A stretch of DNA of 64,000 bases from Bacilli bacterium. GTDB lineage: Bacteria > Bacillota_I > Bacilli_A > RF39 > UBA660. This document shows positions 10,691 to 26,929 of this stretch, one piece after another (the stretch's first letter is position 1; each line of letters opens with the position of its first letter). The notes under the pieces are model-generated. The model was not told the origin of the DNA. It worked only from the letters and a program-made list of their open reading frames with translations, and made no database searches. The stretch lies in the NCBI GenBank assembly GCA_017484125.1, contig JAFUTV010000006.1, forward strand, positions 1,658 to 65,657. The letters run 5' to 3'. Both the position numbers and the translations under genes were made by a program.

Positions 10691-10720
10691 TTTGCATACT
10701 CCTTTTTATATTATATATTA

Positions 10721-11161: not shown

Positions 11162-11186
11162 TTTGCATACTCCTTTCTATTATTTA

Positions 11187-12134: not shown

Positions 12135-12160
12135 AACTTTACTTCCTTTCTTTTTTTATT

Positions 12161-13033
12161 TTAATTATCCATTATTACTCCTGTTGGTTGAAATTGAACA
12201 TTACCATATGTTTCATTATCACTAGATTTAGCAGATACATAAAAGTTGGTATATACTTTTTCATTACTACTTACATCAACTGTTGTATTAACTATTGTTG
12301 CTGATCCAACCTTTACTCCACGTCCGGCTGAAAAACTTTTTATTAATTCCCAACTATTATTTGTATATCCATAAACATATACATATACAGTTGAAGCATA
12401 TATTGCACTACTATTACCAAATGCTCCATATATGTAAAACTTCTTTAACTGTAAATTACAATTACCATAAGTTAATAATGTTGTTGTATTATTAGTTCTA
12501 AGAACATATGGATATGATCCATTAGAGGCAGAGTAATTTTTATTTTCTAATGTAGATGTAGTTTTTAAACTTTGTGATTTACTTCTTAAATATTTATTGT
12601 AAATATCATATGCCATTACATAAACATTGTATTTTTTATTAGAGGTTAATCCAGAAATAGTTAGTTCATTACTTGTTGACATATTTAAATAAATATTTTG
12701 TTCATCATCTATAGCAAATGCATGATAGCCAAATATTTTATTATTATCAGTTGCTTCAACTGTTGGTATTACTTTAATACTATCATTTGTTAATACTGAT
12801 GTAAAAGAGACATTAGTTATAATATCACTTCTTGTTTTTGATTTGGCATATAATTCATTTATAGCTGTTTCTACTTCTTGAATATCATCACCTTCATCTG
12901 TTTTCCATGTAGTGTCTACTGGAGTAAAACCAACATCACTAGCTATAAAAGAGAATGCAAATACTGATGTAGCACTTGCTACAATTAAACCTAAAATAAA
13001 TATAAATAATCTTGATTTAATTAATCTTTTCAT
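12161..13033 (-). CDS. LH-family member 22 (long handle). Head: FN3-like domain plus an extra beta domain
   Basis: Leader MKRLIKSRLFIFILGLIVASATSVFAFSFIASDVGFTPVDTTWKTDEGDDIQEVETAINELY. Head ..ELTISGLTSNKKYNVYVMAYD... Confidence 0.85.
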   Translation of the reverse strand: MKRLIKSRLFIFILGLIVASATSVFAFSFIASDVGFTPVDTTWKTDEGDDIQEVETAINELYAKSKTRSDIITNVSFTSVLTNDSIKVIPTVEATDNNKIFGYHAFAIDDEQNIYLNMSTSNELTISGLTSNKKYNVYVMAYDIYNKYLRSKSQSLKTTSTLENKNYSASNGSYPYVLRTNNTTTLLTYGNCNLQLKKFYIYGAFGNSSAIYASTVYVYVYGYTNNSWELIKSFSAGRGVKVGSATIVNTTVDVSSNEKVYTNFYVSAKSSDNETYGNVQFQPTGVIMDN

Positions 13034-13051
13034 TTTGCATACTCCTTTCTT

Positions 13052-13552
13052 TTATTCTGCTTTAATTTTAATACCAGCTCCACCATTATTTAAGTTATTA
13101 TAACAATAAAAGTTAGCCTGTAATAAATGGTTATGATCAATTTGAAATTCATGTTCATTTAAATCTGATATTGTATATATTAATTGTCCATCTAAATATA
13201 TCCTAATGGAAATATATGTTCCCATATTTCCAGTACCTTGTAATGTTAATTTTTTATATTTATCTAATCCATTTATTGTTACAGGTGTAAAATTCCAATA
13301 TCCACTTCTTGAACCCATTTCAAATGGCCCATATTCTAAATCAAGAGGTTCAAGAGCACATGTATCTCTTAAATCATCAAGTGCTTCTTTGACATTTTCC
13401 ATTGGCTCTCCATTACTTTTTTTCCATGTATTATCTGTTGGAGTAAAAGCAACATCACTTGCAATAATAGAGTATGCAAAAACTGATGTAGTACTAGCTA
13501 CAATTAAGCCTAAAATAAACATAAATATTCTTGATTTAATTAATCTTTTCAT
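13052..13552 (-). CDS. LH-family member 21 (long handle). Small head
   Basis: The track ORF starts MKGVCK-MKRLIK. The first 6 codons are the family's conserved RBS/UTR (AAAGGAGTATGCAAAATG) read as protein, so the true start is ATG 13552. Leader MKRLIKSRIFMFILGLIVASTTSVFAYSIIASDVAFTPTDNTWKKSNGEPMENVKEALDDL. Confidence 0.8.
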   Translation of the reverse strand: MKRLIKSRIFMFILGLIVASTTSVFAYSIIASDVAFTPTDNTWKKSNGEPMENVKEALDDLRDTCALEPLDLEYGPFEMGSRSGYWNFTPVTINGLDKYKKLTLQGTGNMGTYISIRIYLDGQLIYTISDLNEHEFQIDHNHLLQANFYCYNNLNNGGAGIKIKAE

Positions 13553-13588
13553 TTTGCATACTCCTTTCATTTTTTATTAATATTTCTA

Positions 13589-14098
13589 TTAATTAATTTG
13601 AATTATTCTTATTAATCCTCTATAAGAAATTCTTCCAGATATTGTACCTGAAGCATTTTCAATATAATATACTCTGGTACGACCATATCCCTGACGTCCA
13701 TTAAATGCTTCTGAATTAGTCATATCATATAATGTTATATAATCATTTGGAATAGTTATAGTTGAATCTGCCTCACCTAAAGTTACATCTCTAATTGATG
13801 AAAGTATTACTAACACACCTTTAGTATTTGTTTCAATTGTATAAGAATAATTTGCTGGAGTTCCAGGACTATATTCATAAAGTGTTTTAAATTCCATTTT
13901 ACTAATTCTCTTATATAAGCTATCTAAGGCAGTTGAAACATCTTCAATAATTTGTCCATTACTATCTTTAAATGTATTATCAAGTGGAGTATATCCAACA
14001 TTTGTTGCAATTATAGAGTATGCAAAAACTGACACTGCACTAAATATTACAGCACCTAAAATAAACGTAAATATTGGATTTTTAAATAGTTTTTGCAT
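13589..14098 (-). CDS. LH-family member 20 (long handle). Small head
   Basis: Leader MQKLFKNPIFTFILGAVIFSAVSVFAYSIIATNVGYTPLDNTFKDSNGQIIEDVSTALDSLY. Head ..TNTKGVLVILSS..YRGLIRIIQIN. Confidence 0.85.
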   Translation of the reverse strand: MQKLFKNPIFTFILGAVIFSAVSVFAYSIIATNVGYTPLDNTFKDSNGQIIEDVSTALDSLYKRISKMEFKTLYEYSPGTPANYSYTIETNTKGVLVILSSIRDVTLGEADSTITIPNDYITLYDMTNSEAFNGRQGYGRTRVYYIENASGTISGRISYRGLIRIIQIN

Positions 14099-14132
14099 AA
14101 CTCTTTTCCTTCCTTTTATTAATACAATTTTT

Positions 14133-14678
14133 TTACTTTATTCCAAGTATTTTTTCTGGAACTATATATTTACCAGTAGTAGTATCAGAAGCATTACCCA
14201 TTGCTGCATTACCAAATTGAATCTTTTTATCTCCTGGACTTCCAAATGCTCTTAAATATACTCCACTTGCTCCATGTGTTGCTCTTCCACCAAGTCCAAG
14301 TGGTTGAGTAGTATAAGCATATAATTGATCAACAGAATATATTGCATATAATCTATCATTTTGAGCATGTGTTGGATTTGTATTATAAATAATTTTAATA
14401 TACCTATATTTTGCAAAAGTGTCTGATAATATAACAGTTTGAGCAGCAAAAGCAGCAGTTGGTGAAGGATTAGTCCAAAGTACAACTTCTCTTTCTACAT
14501 ATCTTTTATATAAATCATCGAGTGCTTCTTTGGTATCACTTACATTCCATGTATTATCTTTTGGTGTATATCCTACTTGATTAGCAGCTAGGTTGTATGC
14601 AAAAACTGCACTAATAGATCCAAATGTAATAACACCTAAAATATAGTAAAATACTTTTGTTTTAATTATATTTTTCAT
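14133..14678 (-). CDS. LH-family member 19. Small head (LWTNPSPTAAFAAQTV.. type)
   Basis: Leader MKNIIKTKVFYYILGVITFGSISAVFAYNLAANQVGYTPKDNTWNVSDTKEALDDLY. Confidence 0.85.
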   Translation of the reverse strand: MKNIIKTKVFYYILGVITFGSISAVFAYNLAANQVGYTPKDNTWNVSDTKEALDDLYKRYVEREVVLWTNPSPTAAFAAQTVILSDTFAKYRYIKIIYNTNPTHAQNDRLYAIYSVDQLYAYTTQPLGLGGRATHGASGVYLRAFGSPGDKKIQFGNAAMGNASDTTTGKYIVPEKILGIK

Positions 14679-14695
14679 TTTTGCATACTTCCTTT

Positions 14696-15226
14696 CTATT
14701 TTATTTTGTAAATATTAATAATTTTTAGTGAATAACCTCTTGCAATACTTTGTGACATTGTAATAGATACTTCTTTATTTCCTTCAACTTTTATTAAAGC
14801 TTGATATAAATTAACATTTGTTTCACCAACAAATTGATGATAATCAACTGGAGTATCAACAATTGTTGCATTTGTAACACTAACAGACATTGTTGAATTA
14901 AATCCTTCAGAATTAGCTTTAGTTACTTCAAGCAAATAGGTACCACTTGTTAAATTAACTGTTTTTGTCATTGTTGAATCATTATATGAATCAGGATAGA
15001 ATGAATATACGAGCTCTGCATTTGGTTTAGTTCTTTCATATAAATCATCTATTGCTTCTTTAACATTTTCTATATCACTTCCATCATCTTGTTTCCAAGC
15101 ATTATCTGTTGGTGTAAATCCTACATCAGGTGCTAGAATTGAATATGCTAAAACTGATGTAATAGAGCATGATATTATTACACCTAAGATAAACGTAAGT
15201 AATGGGTTTTTCATCAGTTTTTTCAT
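14696..15226 (-). CDS. LH-family member 18 (long handle). Small head
   Basis: Leader MKKLMKNPLLTFILGVIISCSITSVLAYSILAPDVGFTPTDNAWKQDDGSDIENVKEAIDDLY. Head ..LTSGTYLLEVTKANSEG..YSLKIINIYKIK. Confidence 0.85.
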   Translation of the reverse strand: MKKLMKNPLLTFILGVIISCSITSVLAYSILAPDVGFTPTDNAWKQDDGSDIENVKEAIDDLYERTKPNAELVYSFYPDSYNDSTMTKTVNLTSGTYLLEVTKANSEGFNSTMSVSVTNATIVDTPVDYHQFVGETNVNLYQALIKVEGNKEVSITMSQSIARGYSLKIINIYKIK

Positions 15227-15245
15227 ATATCTTTTCCTTTCTATT

Positions 15246-15737
15246 TTACTCTAAACCTTGAGCACTAATAATTGCATATTTAAATGTATATGTTCTACTA
15301 TACGCATCTGATCCCGCATAGTTTATAATTGCATTAGAATAAGTATTTCCTACTATGTTACTTCCACTATATCCCCATTGAGGATATATAGGTGATCCAC
15401 CAGGAGTGACATTATATATAAAGAACCTTGCATAATCACTAGCAACATAAGTATTTTTTAAATGAACTGTTGGTGTAACATAATTACCTCTAGGCATATA
15501 TACTGAAAAACTACCTGTTTCATAGACTTTAATATTATATTTTAATAAATCTTTTAATTCATTTAGAGCATCATCAACATTTGTTATGGCTTCACCACCC
15601 CGTTTTTGCCATGTAGTATCGGTTGGTGTATATCCAACATCTTGTGCTAGATAGGAATATGCAAATACTGATACTGATGAAAATATTACAGCACCTAATA
15701 TGAAGAAAAATAATCTTGATTTTAATATTCTTTTCAT
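15246..15737 (-). CDS. LH-family member 17 (long handle). Small head
   Basis: Leader MKRILKSRLFFFILGAVIFSSVSVFAYSYLAQDVGYTPTDTTWQKRGGEAITNVDDALNEL. Confidence 0.85.
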   Translation of the reverse strand: MKRILKSRLFFFILGAVIFSSVSVFAYSYLAQDVGYTPTDTTWQKRGGEAITNVDDALNELKDLLKYNIKVYETGSFSVYMPRGNYVTPTVHLKNTYVASDYARFFIYNVTPGGSPIYPQWGYSGSNIVGNTYSNAIINYAGSDAYSRTYTFKYAIISAQGLE

Positions 15738-15755
15738 TTTGCATACTCCTTTCTT

Positions 15756-16550
15756 TTAATATAAGTTTGATTTAAACACTATTATTACCGGGCGAACTCC
15801 AAAATACTGTGAATATGATGGATTAGTTTGATTAAATGTTCCTGTATATTCAATACGATATGCTTGCGATGATGATGTACTAACATCTCTTAACCAATAA
15901 CCATTTGCTGAAGCATCACTTGCATCTGTACAGCCTCTAGTATTGCAGCTATTTAAATGATTAAATAACCAAGCATATTTACTAGAATTACATGAACTTA
16001 CACTTCCTCCCGTAGCTAAACACCATGAATTATCCCCTTCAACTATATAACCATCACTTCTTACTGCATCTACTACTGATTGGGCTCTAGGTAAATCAAT
16101 ATATTGAACATTTGTCCACGTCCTTCCATAATTTTCACCATCTTGTCCAGTTTTGAAATATTTCATAGCGGTAAACCATGACGTTGTACCAACATTTATA
16201 TTTCTATCAAGGATCATTTCTACTTGATCACTTTTTATATTTAATATGTAAAAATATCTTTTTTCTCCATCTCCTGGATCACATAAGTATTTAGTTCCAA
16301 TACTATAAAGATCATCGAGATTAGAAAACTCACTATCAACATATGTACAAAACTTTAAGAATGCTTTGGAATTATATTTATCATGTAAATCATCTAGAGC
16401 TTCTTTAACATCATTAACTTGCCATGTATTATCTCTTGGAGTAAATCCTACATTACTAGATATAATAGAGTATGCTAAAGTTGATACTGATGAAAATATT
16501 ACAGCACCTAATATGAAATATAATAATCTTGATTTAAATATTCTTTTCAT
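15756..16550 (-). CDS. LH-family member 16. Cys-containing DUF6273-like head
   Basis: Leader MKRIFKSRLLYFILGAVIFSSVSTLAYSIISSNVGFTPRDNTWQVNDVKEALDDLH. Head GTKYLCDPGDGEKRYFYILNIKSDQVEMILDRNI..GYWLRD..FGVRPVIIVFKSNL. Confidence 0.85.
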   Translation of the reverse strand: MKRIFKSRLLYFILGAVIFSSVSTLAYSIISSNVGFTPRDNTWQVNDVKEALDDLHDKYNSKAFLKFCTYVDSEFSNLDDLYSIGTKYLCDPGDGEKRYFYILNIKSDQVEMILDRNINVGTTSWFTAMKYFKTGQDGENYGRTWTNVQYIDLPRAQSVVDAVRSDGYIVEGDNSWCLATGGSVSSCNSSKYAWLFNHLNSCNTRGCTDASDASANGYWLRDVSTSSSQAYRIEYTGTFNQTNPSYSQYFGVRPVIIVFKSNLY

Positions 16551-16583
16551 ACATCTATTTCCTTTCTTTTTTATTTTATTTTT

Positions 16584-17057
16584 TTATTTAACTGCTACAT
16601 AATTCATTGTATAAGTTAAACCTGTATTATTACCCCACCAAACATTTCTAAAAGTAAATCCTGTATCAGTAAGATTTAATGTTACATAACTTTCTCCTCT
16701 ATTGCCAGCTGAATCATAAGCTAATAATTTATTATTAAATCTTGACACCCAAGTTGTAACACCATAATTTCTTTCTATGTAAAGATATACAAAGCTAGGT
16801 TTAAATCCAACATCGATTGTATATGTAGGATGATAAGTATCAGTATCTACAAATTCAAATGTTCCCTTTTTCATATCGTGAACTTCATTGTACAAATTAT
16901 TTAGTGCATCTGATACATTATCAACATTCCATGTACTTTCAGTTGGTGTAAAACCAACATTTGTTGCAAGTATAGAGTATGCAAAGACTGATACTGTACT
17001 AAATATTACAGCACCTAATATAAAGAATAATAATCTTGATTTTAATATTCTTTTCAT
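16584..17057 (-). CDS. LH-family member 15. Small head (possibly lectin-like, related to member 24)
   Basis: Leader MKRILKSRLLFFILGAVIFSTVSVFAYSILATNVGFTPTESTWNVDNVSDALNNLY. Head ..YTIDVGFKPSFVYLY..LNLTDTGFTFRNV..YTMNYVAVK. Confidence 0.85.
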   Translation of the reverse strand: MKRILKSRLLFFILGAVIFSTVSVFAYSILATNVGFTPTESTWNVDNVSDALNNLYNEVHDMKKGTFEFVDTDTYHPTYTIDVGFKPSFVYLYIERNYGVTTWVSRFNNKLLAYDSAGNRGESYVTLNLTDTGFTFRNVWWGNNTGLTYTMNYVAVK

Positions 17058-17084
17058 ATTTACATACTCCTTTCTTTTATTTTT

Positions 17085-17912
17085 TTATTCCATTCCGTAG
17101 AACTCCAATTCTACCATTCCACCATTTGTTCCATATCCAGTTCCTTGTATTTTCCAATAACGATGTTTACCTACTGATTTATTAGCTAAGAACTTTTGTT
17201 CAGTTCCACCAACTCTTTGCGTTGTATATGTATCACTTGCAAGTGTGTAATTACTATTATCATCTGAATAATATAGTGATACATTATCTACTCCTTCAAC
17301 TGAACTTCTTTGAATTAGCGAAAACTCAAATACATATACAGGATTATCAAATCTAAATCCTAAATAGAAACTTCCATTACCTCGATAAGCATAATCTGAT
17401 GATGTACCATCAAATGCTTTCCATAAGTTCCATGTTCCAGAACCATCATATTGAGCTGTACCAAATATACGATCATTATTTGTTTGAACTGGTGTAGTAA
17501 CTACTGTATAATCTCTTTCAATTATTCCTTTGATTTTTCTTGTATAATCTGAATTATTTTTTATATTTGGTGAACTAATTAATGCATTTAATGTTTCATA
17601 ATCAAAAGTATCAAATCCATTTATAACAGTGTCATATATATCAGCATCTGATATGATATCTTTTAAACCTAAGGTATACTTTTTGTTATGACTAATTAAT
17701 ATTGATTTAATATATCTAGGTACTTCAATAATTGCTCTTTCTTGTAAATCATCTAACGCTTCTTTAACATCACTTACATCCCATTCTTCATCTTTTGGTG
17801 TATATCCTACATTTGGTGCCAATAATGAATATGCAAAAACTGATGTAATACCTATTGATATAACTACACCTAACATAAACATAAATATTGGATTTTTAAT
17901 TAGTTTTTGCAT
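17085..17912 (-). CDS. LH-family member 14. Head: linker plus discoidin (F5/8 type C)-like domain
   Basis: The track start MNYM.. abuts the RBS (AAAGGA-ATGaattatATG), so the second ATG (17912) is the likely start. Leader MQKLIKNPIFMFMLGVVISIGITSVFAYSLLAPNVGYTPKDEEWDVSDVKEALDDL. C-terminus ..WKAFDGTSSDYAY..FYLGFRFDNPVYVFEF..YYSDDNSNY..YWKIQG..MVELEFYGME. Confidence 0.85.
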   Translation of the reverse strand: MQKLIKNPIFMFMLGVVISIGITSVFAYSLLAPNVGYTPKDEEWDVSDVKEALDDLQERAIIEVPRYIKSILISHNKKYTLGLKDIISDADIYDTVINGFDTFDYETLNALISSPNIKNNSDYTRKIKGIIERDYTVVTTPVQTNNDRIFGTAQYDGSGTWNLWKAFDGTSSDYAYRGNGSFYLGFRFDNPVYVFEFSLIQRSSVEGVDNVSLYYSDDNSNYTLASDTYTTQRVGGTEQKFLANKSVGKHRYWKIQGTGYGTNGGMVELEFYGME

Positions 17913-17932
17913 ATAATTCATTCCTTTCTTTT

Positions 17933-18988
17933 TTAATTAATACCTAGTAATGTTATTCTTGCAAATCCATTTCCTTTCTTTGCTTGATTACTATTAGCAC
18001 TCTCATTAAATTCTTGTGTTATTTCTGTTTTAGTATTTTCTTCATTTGATTCATATTTTGTATTTGTTGAATACATAACCATCTTTTTATTTGTTAGAGT
18101 TGGATTTAAATATCCAGAACCTCCACCTGAACCAGCGTGTGCAGCAGAACCACCACCGTAGTAGCCACCACCACCACCAGATGATCCATTTTGTCCAGTT
18201 CCACCTTTTCCAAGTAGACCGTTACCTCCACGGTAACCTCCCGTTCCACCTGAACTTTGTGTTCCACCTTTAGCAGGATCAACACCATAGCCAACAGTGA
18301 ATCCATCGGCACCTTGTTTACCTCCACCGGCACCTCCGTTTACTGAATAATCAGCACCATTTGTGTGGTAATATGCTCCAGCTCCTCCACCAGCAACAAT
18401 AAGTAAATTTTCTCTCATTGTTGATGAAGTAAGAAGTCCAGTTGAAAGTGAAATTGATGTGGCACCTCCACCACCGGCAATATAGTTTTTATTGTCTGGA
18501 TATTGAACTCCTGTTCCACCACCGTTATATCCTCCAGCACAATTTGCATTTAAACATCCACTTTCTCCTTTTGTTCCAACATTGATGTATAAGTTAGTAT
18601 CTTTTTCTAAATTAATAACTCCTGTTGAATAAGCACCATATCCACCAATATAATTATTTATTGCATCTCCTCCTTGTGCTCCCCATACTTCAAGCTTATA
18701 TGTTCCGCTTGTTGGTACTTTAAATACTTCTTCTCTAGATAAGTATTCAAAGTTCCATGTTAGTCCCATTACACTTACTTTGCAATAAGTACAAGTAGTA
18801 TGTAAATCATCAAGTGCTTCACCAGTGTTTTCAATATCACTTCCATCTTTATTCTTCCAAGTATCATCTGCTGGTGTAAATCCAACATTTGGTGCAAATA
18901 AATCATATGCAAAAACTGATGTAATGCTAGCAGCTATTGTTACACCTAATATGAACATAAATATTGGATTTTTAATTAGTTTTTGCAT
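17933..18988 (-). CDS. LH-family member 13 (long handle). Head: C.YC motif plus glycine-rich (ALK/LTK-type, PF12810-like) domain
   Basis: Same MNYM-MQK start structure as its neighbour. Sequence ..FAYDLFAPNVGFTPADDTWKNKDGSDIENTGEALDDLHTTCTYCK..SGTYKLEVWGAQGG..GGGGATSIS..LIVAGGGAGAYY..GGGGGYYGGGSA..KKGNGFARITLL. Confidence 0.85.
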   Translation of the reverse strand: MQKLIKNPIFMFILGVTIAASITSVFAYDLFAPNVGFTPADDTWKNKDGSDIENTGEALDDLHTTCTYCKVSVMGLTWNFEYLSREEVFKVPTSGTYKLEVWGAQGGDAINNYIGGYGAYSTGVINLEKDTNLYINVGTKGESGCLNANCAGGYNGGGTGVQYPDNKNYIAGGGGATSISLSTGLLTSSTMRENLLIVAGGGAGAYYHTNGADYSVNGGAGGGKQGADGFTVGYGVDPAKGGTQSSGGTGGYRGGNGLLGKGGTGQNGSSGGGGGYYGGGSAAHAGSGGGSGYLNPTLTNKKMVMYSTNTKYESNEENTKTEITQEFNESANSNQAKKGNGFARITLLGIN

Positions 18989-19026
18989 ATAATTCATTCC
19001 TTTCTATTATTTTTTTTGTTTATTAA

Positions 19027-19587: not shown

Positions 19588-19603
19588 ACTTCTTATTTCC
19601 TTT

Positions 19604-20110: not shown

Positions 20111-20141
20111 ACTCTTTATTTCCTTTCTATTTAATTTGAAT

Positions 20142-20648
20142 TTATACTTTTATTAATATTGCTATATTTGATGTGTTTCCTTGATTAGACCAAATGGAAA
20201 ACTCTACAGTATCACCAGGCTTTAATGAAACAGCATATGCATATATCCTAGAATAAGATGTTGAAGCACTGGATTCTTTTTTATTTTCAACTAAAGGTAT
20301 GTATGTTCCAGTTGTTGTTATGCTACTATAAGTTGTTCCATCACCATAATGAATTGATGTTCCACCACCTGCTGCTATTAATTTACAGTTTTTTGTAGCT
20401 GTATAGCTAACCGTTGCTTTATTTTTGTCATGATAATATGCTCTTGCTACTACTTCACCACTTTTAGTTAACATAGCTCTTAATTCATCCAGTGCTAAGT
20501 TTGCATTATCTACATTCCAGTTGGAATCAGTTGGAGTAAATGAAACATCCGTTGTTAGAAACGAGTATGCTAGAACTGTACTTATTCCACCAAAAATAAG
20601 TGCGCCAATTATAAAATAAAATATTCTTGATATAATTAATTTTTTCAT
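20142..20648 (-). CDS. LH-family member 10. Small head, tandem paralog of member 11
   Basis: Leader MKKLIISRIFYFIIGALIFGGISTVLAYSFLTTDVSFTPTDSNWNVDNANLALDEL. Head AYYHDKNKATVSYTATKNCKLIAAGGG..FSIWSNQGNTSN... Confidence 0.85.
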   Translation of the reverse strand: MKKLIISRIFYFIIGALIFGGISTVLAYSFLTTDVSFTPTDSNWNVDNANLALDELRAMLTKSGEVVARAYYHDKNKATVSYTATKNCKLIAAGGGTSIHYGDGTTYSSITTTGTYIPLVENKKESSASTSYSRIYAYAVSLKPGDTVEFSIWSNQGNTSNIAILIKV

Positions 20649-20671
20649 TTTACATACTCCTTTCTTTTTTA

Positions 20672-21760
20672 TTAACTTACTGTTAGAAGTGTAACTTTGG
20701 CATAGCCATTTCCACTTTTAGCATAATCACTTATTGGATTACTTGAAACATTTGTTGTAGATATAGTTTTAGTACTTTTTTCATCTGAAGTTGTGCAATT
20801 ATAACATGTCATATGTTTAGTAATTGTATTTAGTGATTTTAGATTAGATGAAGCAATATAACTTGAACCACCTCCAGCTCCAGCTACGGTAGAACCTCCA
20901 CCGCCATAGTATCCGCCTCCACCGCCGGAGCCTCCACCATTGTTACTTGCTGTACTGGAGTTACCACCTTTTCCAAAACTACCAGATGAAGGTGCTCCGC
21001 GCGAACCAGATGCAAAGCTTCCACCAGCACTTTGAGTTGCACCATATCCTTCTCTACCATTTGTTGAAGAACTTTTACCACCATTTATTCCTTTTATTCC
21101 TCCAGCAGATCCTCCATTAGCATTTTCGTTAGAAGCATAGTAATATGCTCCGCCTCCGCCACCGGAAGCAATTAATAACATTTCATTAGTTACAGCTTGA
21201 GTATAACCTAAAGATGCTAATGTTCCACTTTTCATAGCAATATGAGTTGCTCCACCGCCAGAGGCATTATATGTATTATTATTTAGCCAATGATAAGAAT
21301 TTCCTCCACCATTATATCCTCCAGTATAATCTCCCGTTGTTGAAGTACCATTCGTTCCAGCACCACCAACATTTATAAATAGTTTTTGTCCTTTTGTTAG
21401 TGAAACAACTCCTATAGAATATGCACCATATCCACCTACTTTATTTCCAGGAGTTGATCCCCCCTGCGCTCCCCATGTTTCTAAAATATATATTCCATTT
21501 AACGGAACAGTAAATTGTTCTTCTTTTCCTTCATAAGCAAAGCCCCATTCAAGTCCATCAAATCTTGTTTTGCAATAATCACATGTTTCATGTAAATCAT
21601 CTATTGCACTACCAGTATTATCAACTTCCCAATCTTCATCTTTTGGATTATAACCAACATCATTAGCAAATATTGAATATGCAAAAACTGATGTTATACC
21701 TATTGTTGATAAAACACCTAATATATAAGTAAATATTGGATTTTTTAATAGTTTTTGCAT
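20672..21760 (-). CDS. LH-family member 9. Head: C.YC motif plus glycine-rich (PF12810-like) domain
   Basis: Sequence MQKLLKNPIFTYILGVLSTIGITSVFAYSIFANDVGYNPKDEDWEVDNTGSAIDDLHETCDYCK..NGIYILETWGAQGG..SGGGATHIA..LIASGGGGGAYY..GGGGGYYGGGGS..KSGNGYAKVTLL. Confidence 0.85.
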   Translation of the reverse strand: MQKLLKNPIFTYILGVLSTIGITSVFAYSIFANDVGYNPKDEDWEVDNTGSAIDDLHETCDYCKTRFDGLEWGFAYEGKEEQFTVPLNGIYILETWGAQGGSTPGNKVGGYGAYSIGVVSLTKGQKLFINVGGAGTNGTSTTGDYTGGYNGGGNSYHWLNNNTYNASGGGATHIAMKSGTLASLGYTQAVTNEMLLIASGGGGGAYYYASNENANGGSAGGIKGINGGKSSSTNGREGYGATQSAGGSFASGSRGAPSSGSFGKGGNSSTASNNGGGSGGGGGYYGGGGSTVAGAGGGSSYIASSNLKSLNTITKHMTCYNCTTSDEKSTKTISTTNVSSNPISDYAKSGNGYAKVTLLTVS

Positions 21761-21802
21761 ATTTTATTTTCCTTTCTATTTTTTTAGTTTTATAAATTAT
21801 TA

Positions 21803-22369
21803 TTAATGATATATAAATATTCCTATGTTTTGTGGCAATGTGTTATATGGCGGATAATCTGGTCCAACATAAGTTAATGTATCACTTTCACTATTTATTT
21901 TTATTTCATATAGTGAGTAGTAAAAATAATTAGATTGATATCCTGATGAAGAAGAGGTAGCACTTACATCAAAGTATTTAGCAGTCTTTCTTTTAATTGA
22001 ACAGCTATTACATGTTAAACTTGTATCACTATCATAATCTTTTATTACTGTAGTGTGTCTAGAAGATGGCATTGCAGAAACTGCATCTATTGTAATTACA
22101 ACGTACCTTCCTTTAGATAATTCTTTAGTCAATGTTCTATTTCTACCTCTATTACCTTGGAAAGATACAATTTCTAAATTATCAAATCTAGCAATATCAT
22201 CTCTTAATTCATCTAATGCATTACTAACATTATCAACATCCCAATCATCGTCTTTTGGATTATAGCCAACATCTTGAGCTAGTAATGAGTATGCAAAAAC
22301 TGATACTGTTGAAAATATTACAGCACCTAATATAAAAGTAAATATTGGATTTTTTACTAGTTTTTTCAT
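21803..22369 (-). CDS. LH-family member 8. Small head (KGRY type)
   Basis: Leader MKKLVKNPIFTFILGAVIFSTVSVFAYSLLAQDVGYNPKDDDWDVDNVSNALDEL. Head ..LSKGRYVVITIDAVSA..IGIFIYH. Confidence 0.85.
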   Translation of the reverse strand: MKKLVKNPIFTFILGAVIFSTVSVFAYSLLAQDVGYNPKDDDWDVDNVSNALDELRDDIARFDNLEIVSFQGNRGRNRTLTKELSKGRYVVITIDAVSAMPSSRHTTVIKDYDSDTSLTCNSCSIKRKTAKYFDVSATSSSSGYQSNYFYYSLYEIKINSESDTLTYVGPDYPPYNTLPQNIGIFIYH

Positions 22370-22404
22370 TTTGCATACTCCTTTCTTTTTTATTTTTTAA
22401 TTAT

Positions 22405-23478
22405 TTATGGAGCAACTATTGAATAATTAGTTTCATTGTCATAAATAATACTGTTTGGTTTTATACTTACAATTGGGTTAAAGTTTACATTTCCATCTTT
22501 GTCAGCATAACACCATGTTTTATTACCATTTAAAATCATTACCCAACCATTTCCATAACTACCAGGACTTGAAAACCAGAATTTTGTATTAGATAAACCA
22601 AATGTATTATCAATTCCAGTCCATGCATTATATGTATAACCAGTAGAATTAAATTGACTATAATTAATGCTTGATCCAGTTTTTAAGTTATATCCAGAGA
22701 AGAACAAATCGATTGTTGGACCTGCTGCTGCAAAGTCACATATATCACTTTTACAATAACTTGAGTAATTTGATGGAGTTAACATACTCCAAGTTTTGGA
22801 TGCACCATTAGCATTTCCATTTGAACTACTATATTGTTTAGCCCAAGCTAACAAATTGTTTCCAGAAGACTTATTTAAAACACTATTTGCATACGTGCCA
22901 TTAGCTGTTGGCTTGCCACTCCATCTAGCAGTTTTACTAATCAAATACATATGAACACCATCAGTTGCAAATTTATTGCCAATAAATAGTATTATCCAAT
23001 TACTATCGCCATTATAATTTACCGTTTTTCCAAGGAAACTCTTATAATCAGATGAAGCAATTTTAGATATTTGTTGTCCATATATCCATTTAGCAAATAA
23101 TACTTTATCATCAGTGGTATCTAAATTATCAACCGTTACTTTAGTGGTATAAGTATCATCGGTATACCAACCAGCAAATACATAATCTTCTTTAGTAGCA
23201 GTTGGTAAACTCCATAGTTTTTCACCCTTAGCCACTTTTATTAAAGATGTTCCTGATGTTCCACCGTTTGTAATAAAACGTATTGTTGAAAATGATGCAT
23301 TTAAGTCGTACAAGTTATCCAATGCTTCTTTTGTATTTTCTACTTCCCAAGAATCATCTTTTGGAGTGTATCCTACATTTTGTGCAATTATAGAGTATGC
23401 AAAAGCAGATGTCATACCCACAAATATAATGGCACCAAGTATAAAGAATAATAATTTTGATTTAAATATCTTTTTCAT
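22405..23478 (-). CDS. LH-family member 7. Head: Listeria-Bacteroides (Flg_new) repeat plus DUF6273-like domain
   Basis: Leader MKKIFKSKLLFFILGAIIFVGMTSAFAYSIIAQNVGYTPKDDSWEVENTKEALDNLY. Then TIRFITNGGTSGTSLIKVAKGEKLWSLPTATKEDYVFAGWYTDDTY..VLFAKW. C-terminus ..FWFSSPGSYGNGWVMILNGN..NPIVSIKPN. Confidence 0.85.
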   Translation of the reverse strand: MKKIFKSKLLFFILGAIIFVGMTSAFAYSIIAQNVGYTPKDDSWEVENTKEALDNLYDLNASFSTIRFITNGGTSGTSLIKVAKGEKLWSLPTATKEDYVFAGWYTDDTYTTKVTVDNLDTTDDKVLFAKWIYGQQISKIASSDYKSFLGKTVNYNGDSNWIILFIGNKFATDGVHMYLISKTARWSGKPTANGTYANSVLNKSSGNNLLAWAKQYSSSNGNANGASKTWSMLTPSNYSSYCKSDICDFAAAGPTIDLFFSGYNLKTGSSINYSQFNSTGYTYNAWTGIDNTFGLSNTKFWFSSPGSYGNGWVMILNGNKTWCYADKDGNVNFNPIVSIKPNSIIYDNETNYSIVAP

Positions 23479-23506
23479 ATTTGTATACTCCTTTCTTTTT
23501 TTATTT

Positions 23507-24091
23507 TTAATCTTGTTTTAGTTTAATTGCATTCAATGTAATTCCTAAGGCAATATTATTATCAGTACCGCCTGTATATTTAAGTGTTATTGCTACATTG
23601 TCTTCATTTACTTCAGCATAGTAAATAAAATTTTGAAATCTAGTTATTGAATACATATTGTTAAATTTATTTGATGCTCGCGCTCTGTAGTGTTTTTTTG
23701 ATATATCTTTTATATCACATTTACTGGTATCATAGTTTAAAACAAGTGAACTATCAATTGTATATACTCCAGAACTTTCAGTTGTAGTATTATATCCATA
23801 ATTTGAAGTAGCTAATATAATGTATTTACCTTTATTTAAAGTAATCGATGTATTTTTAGCAGTTAGTTGCCCTAAATTTTGATTTGATATAGGCTCATCA
23901 AACGTTCCCATTTCCCATATACTATTATGTAAATTATCAAGTGCACTAGAAACATTATCAACATTCCAGTTTGTATCACTCGGAATATAGCCAACATCAT
24001 TTGCAAACAAGTCGTATGCAAATGCACTGCTACTAGCAATAGTTATACCTAAAATAAATGTAAATATTGGATTTTTAAATATTTTCTTCAT
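23507..24091 (-). CDS. LH-family member 6. Small head (KGKY type)
   Basis: The track start MQM.. is the conserved UTR ATGCAA. The likely start is ATG 24091. Leader MKKIFKNPIFTFILGITIASSSAFAYDLFANDVGYIPSDTNWNVDNVSSALDNLH. Head ..LNKGKYIILATSNYGY... Confidence 0.85.
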   Translation of the reverse strand: MKKIFKNPIFTFILGITIASSSAFAYDLFANDVGYIPSDTNWNVDNVSSALDNLHNSIWEMGTFDEPISNQNLGQLTAKNTSITLNKGKYIILATSNYGYNTTTESSGVYTIDSSLVLNYDTSKCDIKDISKKHYRARASNKFNNMYSITRFQNFIYYAEVNEDNVAITLKYTGGTDNNIALGITLNAIKLKQD

Positions 24092-24110
24092 TTGCATACT
24101 CCTTTCTTTT

Positions 24111-24938
24111 TTATTCTGGTGTCACATACACCTCAGTAATATAGTCATATGTATCCCAGTTTGCTATATGTATTTGACCAGTATAGTTATTAAGTGTAAA
24201 TTTATCTAAATATGCTCCCGTTGTTCTATTAGAACTTGCAATATTATTTACACTAATATATGGTACATTTGTTCCACTAATTGATGTTTTATAGTATTTA
24301 ACATAAATACTTTTATATTTTGATACATCAATACTATTTACGGTTATCATTCTTGATTTTGAACATCCAGCAGCTGAATTATATAAAAGTATATTTGTTG
24401 AATTTTTTTGAAATAATCCTCTTCTAGGGGTACATCCTTCATCTACTATTTCTACATTCCATCCTCCTGTTATTATCTCATATTCATTCCCATCATTATA
24501 TAACCATATTCTATTTAAAGTTGTTAAATCTGTTTCTGAAGTTTTGACTAATTTATCATTCGAATCATAAGCATTTACTTTAATTTTATATGTCGTATTT
24601 AGATTTAAATTAGTAAACGTATATGTATCACTTGTTGAATTTTCTTTGAATACATTATCTATGTAATAAGTATACTTTGAAGATATTTGTTTTACATAAT
24701 CTGGTATTTTTACTTTTATATATGTTCCATTTAATTCAAGAGCTTCAACATTAAATGAATTAATTCTATTATGCAAATCATCTATAGCATCTTTTGTATT
24801 ATCTACTTTCCAATTACTATCTCTTGGTGTAAATCCTACATCATCAGCTATAAGTGAGTATGCAAAAACTGATGTAGTGCTTACTACAATTAAACCTAAA
24901 ATAAATACAAATATTCTTGATTTAATTAGTTTTTGCAT
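24111..24938 (-). CDS. LH-family member 5. Head: FN3-like domain plus 'TGGW' beta domain (related to member 1)
   Basis: Leader MQKLIKSRIFVFILGLIVVSTTSVFAYSLIADDVGFTPRDSNWKVDNTKDAIDDLH. Then ..TFTNLNLNTTYKIKVNAYD.., then IWLYNDGNEYEIITGGW... Confidence 0.85.
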   Translation of the reverse strand: MQKLIKSRIFVFILGLIVVSTTSVFAYSLIADDVGFTPRDSNWKVDNTKDAIDDLHNRINSFNVEALELNGTYIKVKIPDYVKQISSKYTYYIDNVFKENSTSDTYTFTNLNLNTTYKIKVNAYDSNDKLVKTSETDLTTLNRIWLYNDGNEYEIITGGWNVEIVDEGCTPRRGLFQKNSTNILLYNSAAGCSKSRMITVNSIDVSKYKSIYVKYYKTSISGTNVPYISVNNIASSNRTTGAYLDKFTLNNYTGQIHIANWDTYDYITEVYVTPE

Positions 24939-24958
24939 ATTTTATTTTCCTTTCTTTT

Positions 24959-26038
24959 TTACTTGACTACTTCTAAAGTTATTCTTGCGTAACCATTTCC
25001 TATTTTAGCTTTATCTGATTGTGGTTTATTTTCTACATCATCAGTTGTAATTGTTTTTGTTGAATCATCATCAGATGTTGTACATTTATAACATGTTGTA
25101 TGTTTAGTCAATAAATTTGTCGAAATCAATCTTGAACTTGCAATATAACTTGAACCACCGCCAGCACCAGAGTGTCTTGATGATCCACCACCGTAGTAGC
25201 CTCCACCGCCACCTGGTTCATTATTTCCATAGCAAGCTCCACCGGCTGCACCTTGGCCAAATGATCCTGAATTACAAGAACCAGTTTGACCAGCACCACC
25301 AGAGTCCTGAGTACCACCATGACCTACACTTGTTGTCCAGTTATTATGAAATCCATCATGTCCTATATAACCACCACCATGGCCACCAGAACCACTCGGA
25401 GTTGTGCCATTAGAACCATCAGAATAGTGAATACTACCACCACCTCCACCGGCAACGATTAAAATATCACCTTTTCTATCAACTAATGATGATAAAACGC
25501 CAGATGAGAAAGCAATGTGAGTGGCACCACCTCCACCGGCACCCCATCCGCCATATCCTTGTGAAGTATATCCAGTACCTTTACCACCACCATTGTAACC
25601 AGCATTACCTGAAGAATCACCTTGGCCACCAACGTTGATAAATAATATATCGCCTTCATTTAATTTAACATAACCAGTAGCAAAACCACCATAACCACCA
25701 CTAAAACTTGAAGAAGCGTTTCCTCCTTGTGCTCCCCATACTTCTAATTTATATATTCCAGATAATGGAACTGGGAAATTTTGTTCTTCTCCTTCATATG
25801 GATAATTCCAAACAAGTCCTTCAAATCTTGTTTTACAATAAGTACAAGTTTCGTGTAATTCATCTAGTGCTTCACCAGTATCATTAATATCAGTTCCATC
25901 AGATTTTTTCCAAGAACTATCTGATGGTGTAAAGCCTACATCACTAGCAATTAAGGAGTATGCAAAAGCTGATGTAGTACTAGCTACAATTAAACCTAAG
26001 ATAAATACAAATATTCTTGATTTAAATAGTTTTTGCAT
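24959..26038 (-). CDS. LH-family member 4 (long handle). Head: C.YC motif plus glycine-rich (PF12810-like) domain
   Basis: Sequence MQKLFKSRIFVFILGLIVASTTSAFAYSLIASDVGFTPSDSSWKKSDGTDINDTGEALDELHETCTYCK..SGIYKLEVWGAQGG..GGGGATHIA..LIVAGGGGGS..GGGGGYYGGGSS..KIGNGYARITL. Confidence 0.85.
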   Translation of the reverse strand: MQKLFKSRIFVFILGLIVASTTSAFAYSLIASDVGFTPSDSSWKKSDGTDINDTGEALDELHETCTYCKTRFEGLVWNYPYEGEEQNFPVPLSGIYKLEVWGAQGGNASSSFSGGYGGFATGYVKLNEGDILFINVGGQGDSSGNAGYNGGGKGTGYTSQGYGGWGAGGGGATHIAFSSGVLSSLVDRKGDILIVAGGGGGSIHYSDGSNGTTPSGSGGHGGGYIGHDGFHNNWTTSVGHGGTQDSGGAGQTGSCNSGSFGQGAAGGACYGNNEPGGGGGYYGGGSSRHSGAGGGSSYIASSRLISTNLLTKHTTCYKCTTSDDDSTKTITTDDVENKPQSDKAKIGNGYARITLEVVK

Positions 26039-26063
26039 ATTTTTACTTCCTTTCTATTTTTTA

Positions 26064-26906: not shown

Positions 26907-26929
26907 ATCTTTATTTTCCTTTCTATTTT

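What the first reader, a model, noticed from the sequence alone, without database searches (positions are those of the whole stretch)
12161..26038. Leaders resemble their neighbours, not genes of the same head class, indicating leader/head mosaicism
Adjacent genes with unrelated heads share near-identical leaders:
- 17933 (Gly-rich) and 17085 (discoidin) both start MNYMQKLIKNPIFMF[IM]LGV.
- 13052 and 12161 share MKRLIKSR[IL]F[MI]FILGLIVAS.TSVFA.
- 24959 (Gly-rich) and 24111 (FN3) share MQKL[FI]KSRIFVFILGLIV.STTS.FAYSLIA.DVGFTP.
- 16584, 15756 and 15246 share MKRI[LF]KSRL.[FY]FILGAVIFS.

The four Gly-rich genes, by contrast, have four different leader variants.

At the DNA level the RBS/UTR plus the first ~70 nt are almost identical between some neighbours. 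For example, ..ttgatttaattaatcttttcattttgcatactcctttc occurs at both 13011-13049 and 13531-13569. The conserved ATGCAAAA serves as UTR in MK.. genes (GGAGTATGCAAAATGAAA) and as the start codon in MQK.. genes.

Inference: this points to gene conversion or recombination at the leader/handle boundary, which would shuffle heads onto leaders.
Basis: seen in the sequence. Interest (0 to 1): 0.7.

Follow-up and report, generated by a model that had tools for sequence, protein, structure and literature searches.

The report
Recombining leaders on swappable protein heads
An uncultured gut or rumen bacterium has a row of 27 secreted-protein genes with one short common front end and unrelated, mostly lectin-like back ends; the two parts have been recombined within the row and between species, a familiar way to diversify surface proteins seen here in an undescribed family.

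Summary
Window 7766-28736 (minus strand) holds 27 intact tandem genes. Each has a ribosome-binding site, a Sec-type leader, a roughly 25-aa conserved "handle", and then an unrelated head.

Leaders resemble their neighbours more than chance allows:
- Adjacent leader nt identity is 0.716 against 0.683 overall (p=0.005).
- For 7 of 27 genes the best leader match is a neighbour, against 2 expected (p=0.014).
- The effect holds at synonymous codons (p=0.0003) and recurs in a second array, L009 (p=0.016).

- In L009, the head orthologous to gene 24959 is 90% nt identical, but its leader and handle are only 68% identical. The breakpoint lies at the ALDDL motif (p<0.0005), and each N-terminus matches neighbours in its own genome.
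- That head has dS 0.31 against a locus baseline of 0.8-0.9, which points to recent lateral transfer.

Corrections:
- Breakpoints fall at several conserved islands, not only the leader/handle boundary.
- Shared tracts are 85-92% identical, so the events are old.
- Two of the four examples are a single event copied by a two-gene duplication.
- "MNYMQK" is probably untranslated leader sequence.

Verdict: short-tract gene conversion and cassette exchange in an undescribed modular family. The mechanism is known and the family is new. Interest is moderate.

The parts
7766..28736 (-). Tandem array of 27 intact co-oriented genes plus one pseudogene. Each has its own ribosome-binding site, a Sec-type leader, a conserved handle and a variable head. 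Intergenic gaps are mostly about 15-45 nt (up to about 225 nt around the pseudogene).
   Evidence: The identical arrangement occurs in 4 long contigs from independent assemblies.
3..7508 (-). Giant gene at the downstream end of the array (3055 aa in the full contig). It has an ordinary signal peptide, then the same handle (YDVGYTPADENWDVDNVNDALDGLY), then an ALK_LTK_GRD domain and 16 cadherin-like domains.
7766..8572 (-). Family gene. Head is F5/8-type-C-like; long handle (6-aa insertion).
8630..9202 (-). Family gene. Head has no Pfam match and is paralogous to the pseudogene head.
9226..9818 (-). Pseudogene. The N-terminal module is intact except for an in-frame TAA directly after the conserved Trp.
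9848..10690 (-). Family gene. Cys-rich DUF6273-like head class (with 15756 and 26064).
10721..11161 (-). Family gene. H-type lectin head.
   Evidence: 29.3 bits, cut-off 24
11187..12134 (-). Family gene. F5/8 type C head; GTG start.
   Evidence: 31.4 bits, cut-off 28.2
12161..13033 (-). Family gene. fn3-like head homologous to 24111; long handle. Its leader is 92% identical to that of neighbour 13052.
13052..13552 (-). Family gene. Short head that still resembles the first ~45 residues of the Gly-rich head of 24959; long handle.
13010..13049 (-). 40-nt stretch identical to 13529-13568. Covers the ribosome-binding site, UTR and first 8 codons of 12161 and 13052.
13589..15226 (-). Three family genes (13589-14098, 14133-14678, 14696-15226). 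Heads have no Pfam match; 13589 and 14696 have the long handle.
15246..17057 (-). Three neighbouring genes: 15246-15737 (unknown head, long handle), 15756-16550 (DUF6273-like) and 16584-17057 (unknown). Their leaders are 85-91% identical.
17085..17912 (-). Family gene. F5/8-type-C-like head. The true start is probably MQK at 17912.
17933..18988 (-). Family gene. ALK_LTK_GRD Gly-rich head; long handle. The true start is probably MQK at 18988.
17878..17929 (-). 52-nt stretch identical to 18954-19005 (ribosome-binding site to codon ~12 of 17085 and 17933). This is the longest exact repeat between any two 5' regions.
19027..19587 (-). Family gene with an unknown head. Its orthologue P0020 (64% head identity) carries a different leader type.
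19604..20648 (-). Two tandem whole-gene duplicates (19604-20110 and 20142-20648). Heads are 64% aa identical.
20672..21760 (-). Family gene. GRD head. Its orthologue in L009 (12173-13261) is uniformly ~78% nt identical, leader included; this is the congruent control.
21803..22369 (-). Family gene with an unknown head. Its orthologue in L004 has an unrelated N-terminus (breakpoint at nt 141). It is one parent of the chimeric contig L003.
22269..22315 (-). 47-nt stretch identical to 27915-27961 (codons ~19-34 of 21803 and 26930). The L003 crossover lies in this zone.
22405..24091 (-). Two family genes: 22405-23478 (Flg_new plus an unknown region) and 23507-24091 (unknown head; true start MKK).
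24111..24938 (-). Family gene. fn3-like head. Its leader is 92% identical to that of neighbour 24959.
24959..26038 (-). Family gene. GRD head; long handle. The head is 90% nt identical to L009:10001-11065, but the N-terminal module is only 68% identical.
25867..25867 (-). Best-supported cross-genome breakpoint: nt 172 of the 24959 coding sequence, at the ALDEL motif (handle/head boundary).
   Evidence: chi-square 67, permutation p<0.0005
26064..26906 (-). Family gene. DUF6273-like Cys-rich head class.
26930..28015 (-). Family gene. GRD head. Its leader is the other parent of L003 and is 90% identical to that of the distant gene 15246.
28053..28736 (-). First gene of the array; unknown head.
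28737..29399 (-). AT-rich upstream region. It follows the terminator-like hairpin of the preceding gene (29380-29399) and holds the only long non-coding gap, so it is the likely promoter region for the array.
   Evidence: consensus matches only; inference

Best explanation
The locus is a tandem family of exported, probably surface-displayed proteins built from three modules:
1. A ribosome-binding site plus a Sec-type leader.
2. A handle of about 25 aa: an extended segment followed by a helix ending in ALDDL.
3. A head drawn from unrelated, mostly carbohydrate-binding-type folds.

The 5' module (about -20 to +170) is the only sequence shared by all genes. It therefore acts as portable homology for homologous recombination, and two processes follow.

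(a) Short-tract gene conversion copies all or part of the 5' module between paralogues, most often between neighbours. Leaders then track position in the array rather than head type (concerted evolution).

(b) Recombination with end points in the conserved islands moves whole heads between genes, and between related species. The islands are the start region, SVFAYS, VGFTP, W and ALDDL.

What is shown:
- The neighbour effect, including at synonymous sites.
- Decoupling of leader, handle and head.
- Sharp cross-genome breakpoints.
- A head with about three-fold lower dS than the locus baseline.

What is inferred:
- The molecular mechanism (RecA-type conversion or crossover).
- Leader cleavage at FA|YS.
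- The handle as a common docking or anchoring adaptor.
- The adaptive value (a diversified lectin/adhesin repertoire).
For: **Within the window**
- Adjacent leaders: 0.716 against 0.683, p=0.005.
- 7 of 27 genes have their best leader match in an adjacent gene, against 2 expected, p=0.014.
- Synonymous-codon identity: adjacent 0.742 against 0.685, p=0.0003.
- Shared tracts run from -20 to +120, then drop to about 50%.
- Leader and handle identity matrices correlate at r=0.20, against 0.39+-0.065 for random codon partitions, p=0.007.
- The homologous 6-aa handle insertion occurs in 8 genes spread over at least 4 head classes, each of which also has short-handle members.
- Neighbour heads fall in different Pfam families.

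**Between genomes**
- 24959 against L009:10001: head 90% nt, N-terminus 68%, breakpoint at nt 172, p<0.0005. Each N-terminus is closest to paralogues of its own genome.
- dS of that head is 0.31. The control pair gives 0.84 and the flanking giant gene 0.81-0.91.
- 21803 against L004: 54% then 77%, breakpoint at nt 141.
- P0162, P0020, P0046, P0041 and P0018 carry discordant leaders or handles.
- The nearest N-terminus comes from the same genome for 33 of 40 genes, and the adjacency effect is replicated in L009 (p=0.016).

**Possible direct recombinant**
- L003 consists of the 26930 upstream region and leader joined to the 21803 handle and head. The join lies inside their 47-nt identical stretch.
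Against: - Shared tracts are only 85-92% identical and no exact repeat exceeds 52 nt. There is no sign of very recent or frequent conversion.
- A four-gamete/PHI-type test on the N-terminal alignment was not significant (29 usable sites, 68% of site pairs incompatible).
- The genome-wide concerted-evolution signal is small (0.677/0.685 within genomes against 0.667 between, p=0.04).
- Same-head-class leaders show a trend as large as the adjacency effect (0.714, p=0.086).
- Two of the showcase pairs derive from one two-gene duplication.
- L003 is a single 668-nt contig whose join lies in a 47-nt repeat. It could be a de Bruijn assembly chimera, and the parental order is what all four long contigs show.
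- Orthology of heads across genomes is inferred from similarity only.
- The function of the proteins is untested.
Confidence: 0.75

Rival explanations
1. Plain tandem whole-gene duplication. Neighbours share leaders because they are recent duplicates, and their heads have since diverged beyond recognition. No recombination is needed.
For: True whole-gene tandem duplicates exist:
- 19604/20142, with heads 64% aa identical.
- 8630 and the pseudogene at 9226.
- L009 6316/6815.

The pairs 13052-12161 and 24959-24111 are copies of one two-gene unit.
Against: - Neighbour pairs with shared leaders carry heads from different Pfam families: PF12810 against F5/8 type C (weak), fn3 (weak) or DUF6273-like.
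- Similarity stops abruptly at about +120.
- Orthologous heads in other genomes carry different N-termini with sharp breakpoints.
- The real tandem duplicates 19604/20142 have among the least similar N-termini (62% nt).
Confidence: 0.08
2. Convergent or purifying selection on the signal peptide. For example, neighbours may be co-expressed and need the same targeting sequence. This would produce similar leaders without DNA exchange.
For: The N-terminal module is the most constrained part of the family. It has four invariant residues (G, A, P and L) and eight more in at least 90% of genes.
Against: - The neighbour effect is stronger at synonymous codon choice (p=0.0003).
- It extends into the untranslated ribosome-binding-site/UTR region.
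- Exact 40-52-nt repeats are not expected from selection on a peptide.
Confidence: 0.03
3. An actively rearranging cassette system. Frequent, possibly programmed, recombination among array members would generate population heterogeneity, as in phase or antigenic variation.
For: L003 has exactly the structure of a deletion by crossover between the 26930 and 21803 leaders, at their 47-nt identical stretch. It comes from a different sample and carries one private SNP. The exchange points sit in conserved islands.
Against: - No recombinase gene, inverted repeats or opposite-strand cassettes lie in or next to the array.
- Every gene is complete, with its own ribosome-binding site and start codon; there is no single expression site.
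- Paralogue tracts are 85-92% identical, not about 100%.
- Four long contigs from independent assemblies have the same order.
- L003 may be an assembly chimera.
Confidence: 0.12
4. Assembly artefact. Repeated 5' modules caused the metagenome assembler to join leaders and heads wrongly in the window itself.
For: The locus is repeat-rich and comes from a MAG.
Against: - Identical sequence over 20-21 kb was recovered in another assembly: ENA k141_426255, matching 21,080/21,080 nt (L001) and 20,509/20,510 nt (L005). Separate Logan assemblies of two other runs also match.
- Exact repeats are at most 52 nt, far below k=141.
- The mosaic pattern is built from diverged tracts, not identical ones.
Confidence: 0.02

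Closest known systems
Concerted evolution by gene conversion in bacterial surface-protein paralogues (for example Helicobacter pylori babA/babB/hop, Neisseria opa). Comparison from my own knowledge.
   Same: Paralogues share conserved 5' segments that are homogenised or exchanged by homologous recombination. Chimeric genes combine one gene's 5' end with another's variable region. The result is a diversified adhesin repertoire.
   Different: - There are 27 or more tandem, co-oriented genes.
- The shared segment is only about 190 nt (ribosome-binding site, leader and handle).
- The variable parts are unrelated folds, not alleles of one fold.
- The host is an uncultured low-GC Bacilli lineage, not a proteobacterium.
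Mycoplasma variable surface lipoprotein families (vlp, vsp, vsa). Comparison from my own knowledge.
   Same: Tandem families in low-GC, Mollicute-related bacteria with a highly conserved 5' UTR and signal peptide and a variable mature region. Chimeras arise by recombination between members.
   Different: - There is no lipobox as a family feature.
- There are no in-frame tandem repeats.
- There are no homopolymer or invertase switches.
- Heads are globular lectin-type domains.
- A conserved mature 'handle' is present.
Polymorphic toxin / CDI / Rhs cassette systems (PMC3482391).
   Same: A conserved N-terminal part is joined to highly diverse C-terminal modules at a short conserved demarcation motif, with arrays of alternative cassettes. 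Recombination at the conserved junction swaps C-termini, including between strains.
   Different: - Heads are binding-type domains, not toxins.
- There are no immunity genes (most gaps are only about 15-45 nt).
- Every cassette is a complete gene.
- The conserved part is about 55 aa rather than a large delivery apparatus.
Phage receptor-binding protein / tail-fibre modular exchange. Comparison from my own knowledge.
   Same: A conserved N-terminal attachment module carries interchangeable C-terminal receptor-binding heads. The same Gly-rich domain occurs in phage protein families (phrog_1589, 5811, 7388). Exchange happens at conserved linker sequences.
   Different: - The N-terminus is a hydrophobic Sec-type leader.
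- The setting is chromosomal, between housekeeping genes (fpg-polA upstream).
- There are no phage structural genes.
- No relative was found in viral contigs.

Membership tests
Gene-conversion-driven (concerted) evolution of a tandem multigene family | The shared tract is more alike between paralogues of one genome than between orthologues of two genomes. | tested here: met
   - 24959 against its head orthologue n10001: N-terminus 68% identical.
- Same-genome partners are 77% (window) and 85% (L009) identical.
- The nearest N-terminus comes from the same genome for 33 of 40 genes.
Gene-conversion-driven (concerted) evolution of a tandem multigene family | Similarity depends on physical proximity and holds at silent sites. 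| tested here: met
   Adjacency p=0.005 and 0.014. Synonymous codons p=0.0003. Replicated in L009 at p=0.016.
Gene-conversion-driven (concerted) evolution of a tandem multigene family | Statistically supported breakpoints or phylogenetic incongruence along the gene. | tested here: met
   - Max-chi-square breakpoints at nt 172 (p<0.0005) and nt 141 (p<=0.001).
- Leader and handle identity matrices are decoupled (p=0.007).
- A PHI-type test had no power.
Mycoplasma-type variable surface lipoproteins (Vsp/Vlp/Vsa) | Lipoprotein signal peptide with a lipobox Cys. | tested here: not met
   The alignment of 27 leaders ends in S-V-F-A|Y-S. Only 14696 has a Cys in the hydrophobic region. No lipoprotein model hit among the 9 family proteins scanned.
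Mycoplasma-type variable surface lipoproteins (Vsp/Vlp/Vsa) | A mature region made of in-frame tandem repeats, with a switch by homopolymer tract or site-specific inversion. | tested here: not met
   Tandem Repeats Finder reports one 2-copy 21-nt repeat in the whole array. All genes are co-oriented, and there is no recombinase gene or flanking inverted repeat.
Polymorphic toxin / CDI / Rhs cassette systems | C-terminal toxin domains followed by cognate immunity genes. | tested here: not met
   Head Pfam hits are F5/8 type C, H_lectin, fn3, Flg_new, DUF6273 and ALK_LTK_GRD. Intergenic gaps of about 15-45 nt between intact genes leave no room for immunity ORFs.
Phage tail-fibre / receptor-binding protein cassettes | Located in a phage or tailocin structural module, with an N-terminus that docks to a baseplate. 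| tested here: not met
   Of the 10 family proteins scanned against PHROGs, the only hit with E<=0.001 was to the Gly-rich domain ('unknown function'); one weak hit (phrog_37354, E=0.0029) touched residues 7-99 of 9848. The viral contig scan found no relative. Flanking genes are housekeeping.
Type IV pilin-like proteins (PF07963 N_methyl) | Short basic leader, G|F-T-L-x-E processing site and hydrophobic alpha-1 helix. | tested here: not met
   No PF07963 or pilin NCBIfam hit for any array protein. The invariant Gly sits in mid-helix with no Glu at +5. Some Gly-rich homologues elsewhere do carry PF07963.
Pfam PF12810 ALK_LTK_GRD (heads of 17933, 20672, 24959, 26930 and the giant gene) | Score above the Pfam gathering threshold across the whole domain. 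| tested here: met
   119-139 bits against a cut-off of 24.5, covering profile positions 6-7 to 242-243 of 243.
Sec-type cleavable signal peptide (leader) | Basic n-region, hydrophobic h-region, and small residues at -3 and -1 before the cleavage site. | tested here: inconclusive
   The sequence fits: MKKLFKSR, then about 18 hydrophobic residues, then V-F-A|Y-S. AlphaFold models residues 2-30 as one helix. No signal-peptide predictor was available, and an uncleaved membrane anchor is equally possible.

The most novel reading that the evidence does not exclude
The array may be a living cassette library. The roughly 190-nt leader-handle module would serve both as a universal export/anchoring adaptor and as portable recombination homology. 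Lectin-like heads would then be continually deleted, duplicated and imported within populations and between species of uncultured gut Bacilli.

Two observations would be snapshots of this ongoing process: L003 as a real deletion junction, and the 24959-type head as a recent lateral import. This would give these reduced-genome bacteria a rapidly re-assortable glycan-binding surface.
Probability: 0.25. Interest if true: 0.65.

Novelty: new variant of a known kind. Interest (0 to 1): 0.5.

Why it matters
**The family is undescribed.** The N-terminal leader-handle module has no significant match in Pfam, NCBIfam, PHROGs or the PDB, yet it defines about 1,470 protein clusters in metagenomes. It carries many unrelated heads, among them lectin-like domains (F5/8 type C, H-type lectin), fn3-like, Flg_new, DUF6273-like and the ALK-type Gly-rich domain.

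**The modules recombine.** Showing that they do, with end points at defined conserved islands and with at least one head moving between species, explains how uncultured rumen and gut Bacilli build large, varied repertoires of exported binding proteins.

**It points to an experiment.** The handle is the obvious target: what does it dock to?

**The mechanism is not new.** This is conversion and cassette exchange in a multigene family, so the result extends a familiar principle to a new family and does not overturn anything.

Tried and rejected
- **PHI/four-gamete test** on the 27-gene N-terminal alignment: not significant and without power (29 biallelic sites, 68% of site pairs incompatible).
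- **19604/20142 tandem duplicates** as an internal mosaic example: identity is roughly uniform, with no breakpoint inside the gene.
- **N-terminal profile search with the word-indexed protein search:** returned only 15 short fragments. The index-free search was needed.
- **Search for independent copies of the 26930 leader in JGI metagenomes,** to test L003: no match.
- **GTDB scan:**
  - It found the Gly-rich head in many uncultured Bacilli, 'Tenericutes' and Erysipelotrichaceae MAGs.
  - This N-terminal module appeared in only one of those genomes, Tb.RUG.233, so no further diversified arrays were obtained.
- **Weak recurring resemblance of the N-terminus to the SagB membrane anchor** (PDB 6u0o_B, E=0.022; NF052642, E=0.006-0.16): rests on the hydrophobic helix and is not accepted as homology.
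- **SipW/TasA-type or pilin-type signal:** no model hit.
- **AlphaFold model of 10721:** low confidence (pLDDT 62). It was used only for the helix-coil-helix layout of the N-terminus.
- **Promoter and terminator scans inside the array:** promoter-like sites are no more frequent than in shuffles; terminator-like sites exceed shuffles (12 against 4.3+-2.6) but none is convincing or sits in an intergenic gap within the array.
- **Other scans:** Rfam finds only two tRNAs elsewhere in the window, and the literature searches found no description of the family.

Full report
**What is there**

The window is a low-GC (about 27%) bacterial chromosome segment. Its housekeeping genes (polA, fpg, thrS, cysS, miaA) lie almost all on the minus strand. 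It is identical to a contig of an NCBI MAG named only 'Bacilli bacterium' (locus tags IJ572_...). It also matches an ENA assembly and Logan assemblies of other runs.

Downstream of fpg and a 339-aa gene, window 28736 to 7766 carries 27 intact co-oriented genes separated by short gaps, mostly about 15-45 nt. Each gene has its own GAAAGGA ribosome-binding site. The row also contains:
- One pseudogene (9226-9818) with an in-frame TAA after the conserved Trp.
- A giant gene (3-7508; 3055 aa in the full contig) at the downstream end.

All of these proteins begin with the same module. A Sec-type leader (consensus MKKLFKSRIF.FILG......SVFA) is followed by a handle, YS..A.DVGFTP.D..W.V.NV..ALDDL. Eight genes carry a homologous 6-aa insertion in the handle (WKK.DG..IENV).

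Heads differ widely:
- ALK_LTK_GRD Gly-rich: 17933, 20672, 24959, 26930.
- F5/8 type C: 11187; weaker matches for 7766 and 17085.
- H-type lectin: 10721.
- fn3-like (weak): 12161, 24111.
- A Cys-rich DUF6273-like class: 9848, 15756, 26064.
- Flg_new: 22405.
- The remaining genes have no Pfam match.

The N-terminal module has no significant match in Pfam, NCBIfam, PHROGs or the PDB. An index-free HMM search of 1.84 billion representative proteins finds it in 1,472 clusters (482 at E<=1e-10). In all 150 listed hits it lies at the N-terminus. A low-confidence AlphaFold model gives helix 2-30, coil 31-47 and helix 48-66.

**Checking the observation**

Over the first 90 coding nucleotides, the neighbour pairs are this similar:
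- 12161/13052: 92%.
- 24111/24959: 92%.
- 17085/17933: 87%.
- 15246/15756/16584: 85-91%.

Pairwise alignments show the shared tract running from about -20 to about +120 and then collapsing to about 50%. The longest exact repeats are 52 nt (17085/17933) and 40 nt (12161/13052).

The pattern exceeds chance:
- Adjacent leader identity is 0.716 against 0.683 (gene-order permutation p=0.005), with no such effect for the handle (p=0.35).
- Seven of 27 genes have their best leader match next door, against 2.0 expected (p=0.014).
- At positions where two genes encode the same amino acid, adjacent pairs use the identical codon more often (0.742 against 0.685, p=0.0003). This argues for shared DNA ancestry, not selection on the peptide.

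- Leader groups also link distant genes: {12161, 13052, 24111, 24959}, {15246, 15756, 16584, 26930} and {9848, 13589, 21803}.
- Non-adjacent genes of one head class trend as high as neighbours (0.714, p=0.086).
- 'MNYMQK' is probably not translated. The Shine-Dalgarno sequence abuts that ATG, and an independent gene caller starts both genes at MQK and starts 23507 at MKK.
- 13052 resembles 24959 well into the start of the Gly-rich head, and 12161 resembles 24111 through the fn3 region. These two 'examples' are therefore copies of one two-gene unit.

**Testing the interpretation**

*Within the window.* Leader and handle have partly independent histories. Their pairwise-identity matrices correlate at r=0.20, against 0.39+-0.065 for random codon partitions of the same alignment (p=0.007). 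The homologous 6-aa handle insertion is scattered over at least four head classes, each of which also has short-handle members. A single origin therefore requires exchange.

*Between genomes.* A related array (L009) lies on a 42.6-kb contig of another rumen-type metagenome, downstream of spoIIGA-sigE. It has 13 family genes and an orthologous giant gene.
- **The mosaic pair.** The L009 gene at 10001-11065 has a head 91% aa / 90% nt identical to that of 24959.
  - Its leader and handle are only 68% identical and lack the insertion.
  - The max-chi-square breakpoint is at nt 172, on the ALDEL codons (p<0.0005).
  - Each N-terminus is closest to paralogues of its own genome: 85% to the adjacent n11087, and 77% to 24111 and 13052.
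- **The control pair.** 20672 against n12173 is uniformly about 78% identical, and their leaders are each other's best match.
- **Divergence.** Synonymous divergence of the 24959-type head is 0.31.
  - The control head gives 0.84 and the flanking giant gene gives 0.81-0.91.
  - That head therefore shares a much more recent ancestor than the rest of the locus, which suggests lateral import by recombination in the conserved flanks.
- **A second pair.** 21803 against L004 breaks at nt 141, with 54% then 77% identity (p<=0.001).
- **Protein-level orthologues.** Head orthologues P0162, P0020, P0046, P0041 and P0018 (57-73% head identity) carry leaders or handles that are no closer to their window counterpart than random paralogues are.
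- **Replication.** The adjacency effect recurs in L009 (0.715 against 0.685, p=0.016), and 33 of 40 genes have their nearest N-terminus in their own genome.

*A possible direct recombinant.* L003 is a 668-nt contig from a different sample.
- Its nt 1-185 match the 26930 upstream region and leader with one mismatch.
- Its nt 139-668 match 21803 at 100%.
- The join lies in the 47-nt stretch the two genes share (22269-22315 = 27915-27961), which is the second-longest exact repeat among all 5' regions.
- This is the structure expected of a 5.6-kb deletion by unequal crossover. It is equally what a short-k assembly chimera would look like.
- All four long contigs show the parental order, and a JGI scan found nothing further.
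- I count it only as a hint.

**Mechanism**

The best reading is that the 5' module, about 190 nt long, is the only homology shared by all genes and so channels homologous recombination.
- Short-tract gene conversion is most efficient between neighbours. It explains why leaders track position while both heads are kept.
- Crossovers or conversions ending in the conserved islands explain head replacement, including between species. The islands are visible in the per-column conservation and coincide with all observed end points: +55..+101, about +120, +141 and +172.
- Whole-gene and two-gene duplications also occur.

Nothing suggests a programmed switch:
- There is no recombinase gene.
- There are no inverted cassettes or inverted repeats.
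- There are no tandem repeats.
- No tracts are close to 100% identical.

Function is inferred. The proteins are probably exported (the leader may be cleaved at FA|YS or retained as an anchor). They would present diverse, often lectin-like heads on a common handle. The giant protein keeps the handle behind a different, ordinary signal peptide, which suggests the handle acts in the mature protein.

**Comparison with known systems**

The locus behaves like:
- Gene-conversion-shaped surface-protein families, such as H. pylori bab/hop and Neisseria opa.
- Mycoplasma vsp/vlp families, which have a conserved 5' UTR and signal peptide.
- Cassette systems that swap C-termini at a conserved junction motif, such as polymorphic toxins (PMC3482391) and phage receptor-binding proteins.

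It is not a member of any of them:
- It has no lipobox, repeats or invertase.
- It has no toxin or immunity genes.
- It has no phage context.
- It has no pilin signature.

In other gut Bacilli MAGs the same Gly-rich head sits on different N-termini, including type IV pilin-like ones. Head mobility is therefore a broader theme.

**Verdict**

The mechanism is familiar. The family and its three-module layout are undescribed. Interest is moderate (0.5).

Noticed in passing
window 3-7508 (-) against L009:14452-18723: The giant handle-bearing protein of the window carries an ALK_LTK_GRD domain (about aa 259-538). This domain is absent from the otherwise collinear orthologue in L009 (58% aa identity on both sides). 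It is a domain-sized insertion or deletion of the same head type that occurs as separate genes in the array.
   Followed up: partly
window 9226-9818 (-): A family member has been inactivated by a single in-frame TAA directly after the conserved Trp of the handle. The rest of the frame is intact and the head is paralogous to that of 8630-9202.
   Followed up: partly
window 9848-28015, 5' UTRs: There are two UTR types. In the first, GGAGTATGCAAA precedes ATGAAA (MK genes). The ATG inside it lies 1 nt after the Shine-Dalgarno sequence and out of frame, opening a 7-codon uORF-like frame. In the second, GGAAAATAAAAT precedes ATGCAAAAA (MQK genes). UTR type does not follow leader group: 12161/13052 and 24111/24959 share a leader type but differ in UTR type. 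This is another small mosaic block.
   Followed up: partly
window 34253-36257 (-): A 528-aa protein (Flg_new plus DUF6273) has a leader of similar style (…GISYAYV…). It lies next to a ComGC/GspG-like pseudopilin gene (34253-34621). Another pilin-like ORF is at 44275-45069. A link between these and export of the array proteins was not examined.
   Followed up: no
window 45611-48092 (-): A peptidase-C39-type ABC transporter (the N-terminus has the Cys-protease motif) is followed by a small membrane protein, in the style of a bacteriocin or double-glycine export system. The identification rests on reading the sequence only.
   Followed up: no
loci L012-L090, for example L036, L040, L019: The Gly-rich ALK_LTK_GRD head is common in uncultured gut and rumen Bacilli, 'Tenericutes' and Erysipelotrichaceae MAGs. 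There it is fused to other N-termini: type IV pilin-like (KKGFTLVELM…), …SSYALFSFEE…, and …GYAAYNAT…. The window's own species was not among the best hits in the GTDB representative set.
   Followed up: partly
window 62714-63970 (-) and 34671-36257 (-): Further large secreted proteins end in the same C-terminal motif (…RP.IYLK…) as the DUF6273-like heads of the array. This head type therefore also exists outside the array, on other N-termini.
   Followed up: no
window 41104-42042 (-), 50996-51913 (+); L009 2881-4829: Sporulation-type genes are present: SpoIIP-like and GerM-like by eye in the window; CotZ, SpoIIGA and a sigma factor (by position probably sigma-E) by Pfam in L009. These 'Bacilli' lineages are therefore probably spore-formers with a cell wall, not wall-less Mollicutes.
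   Followed up: no
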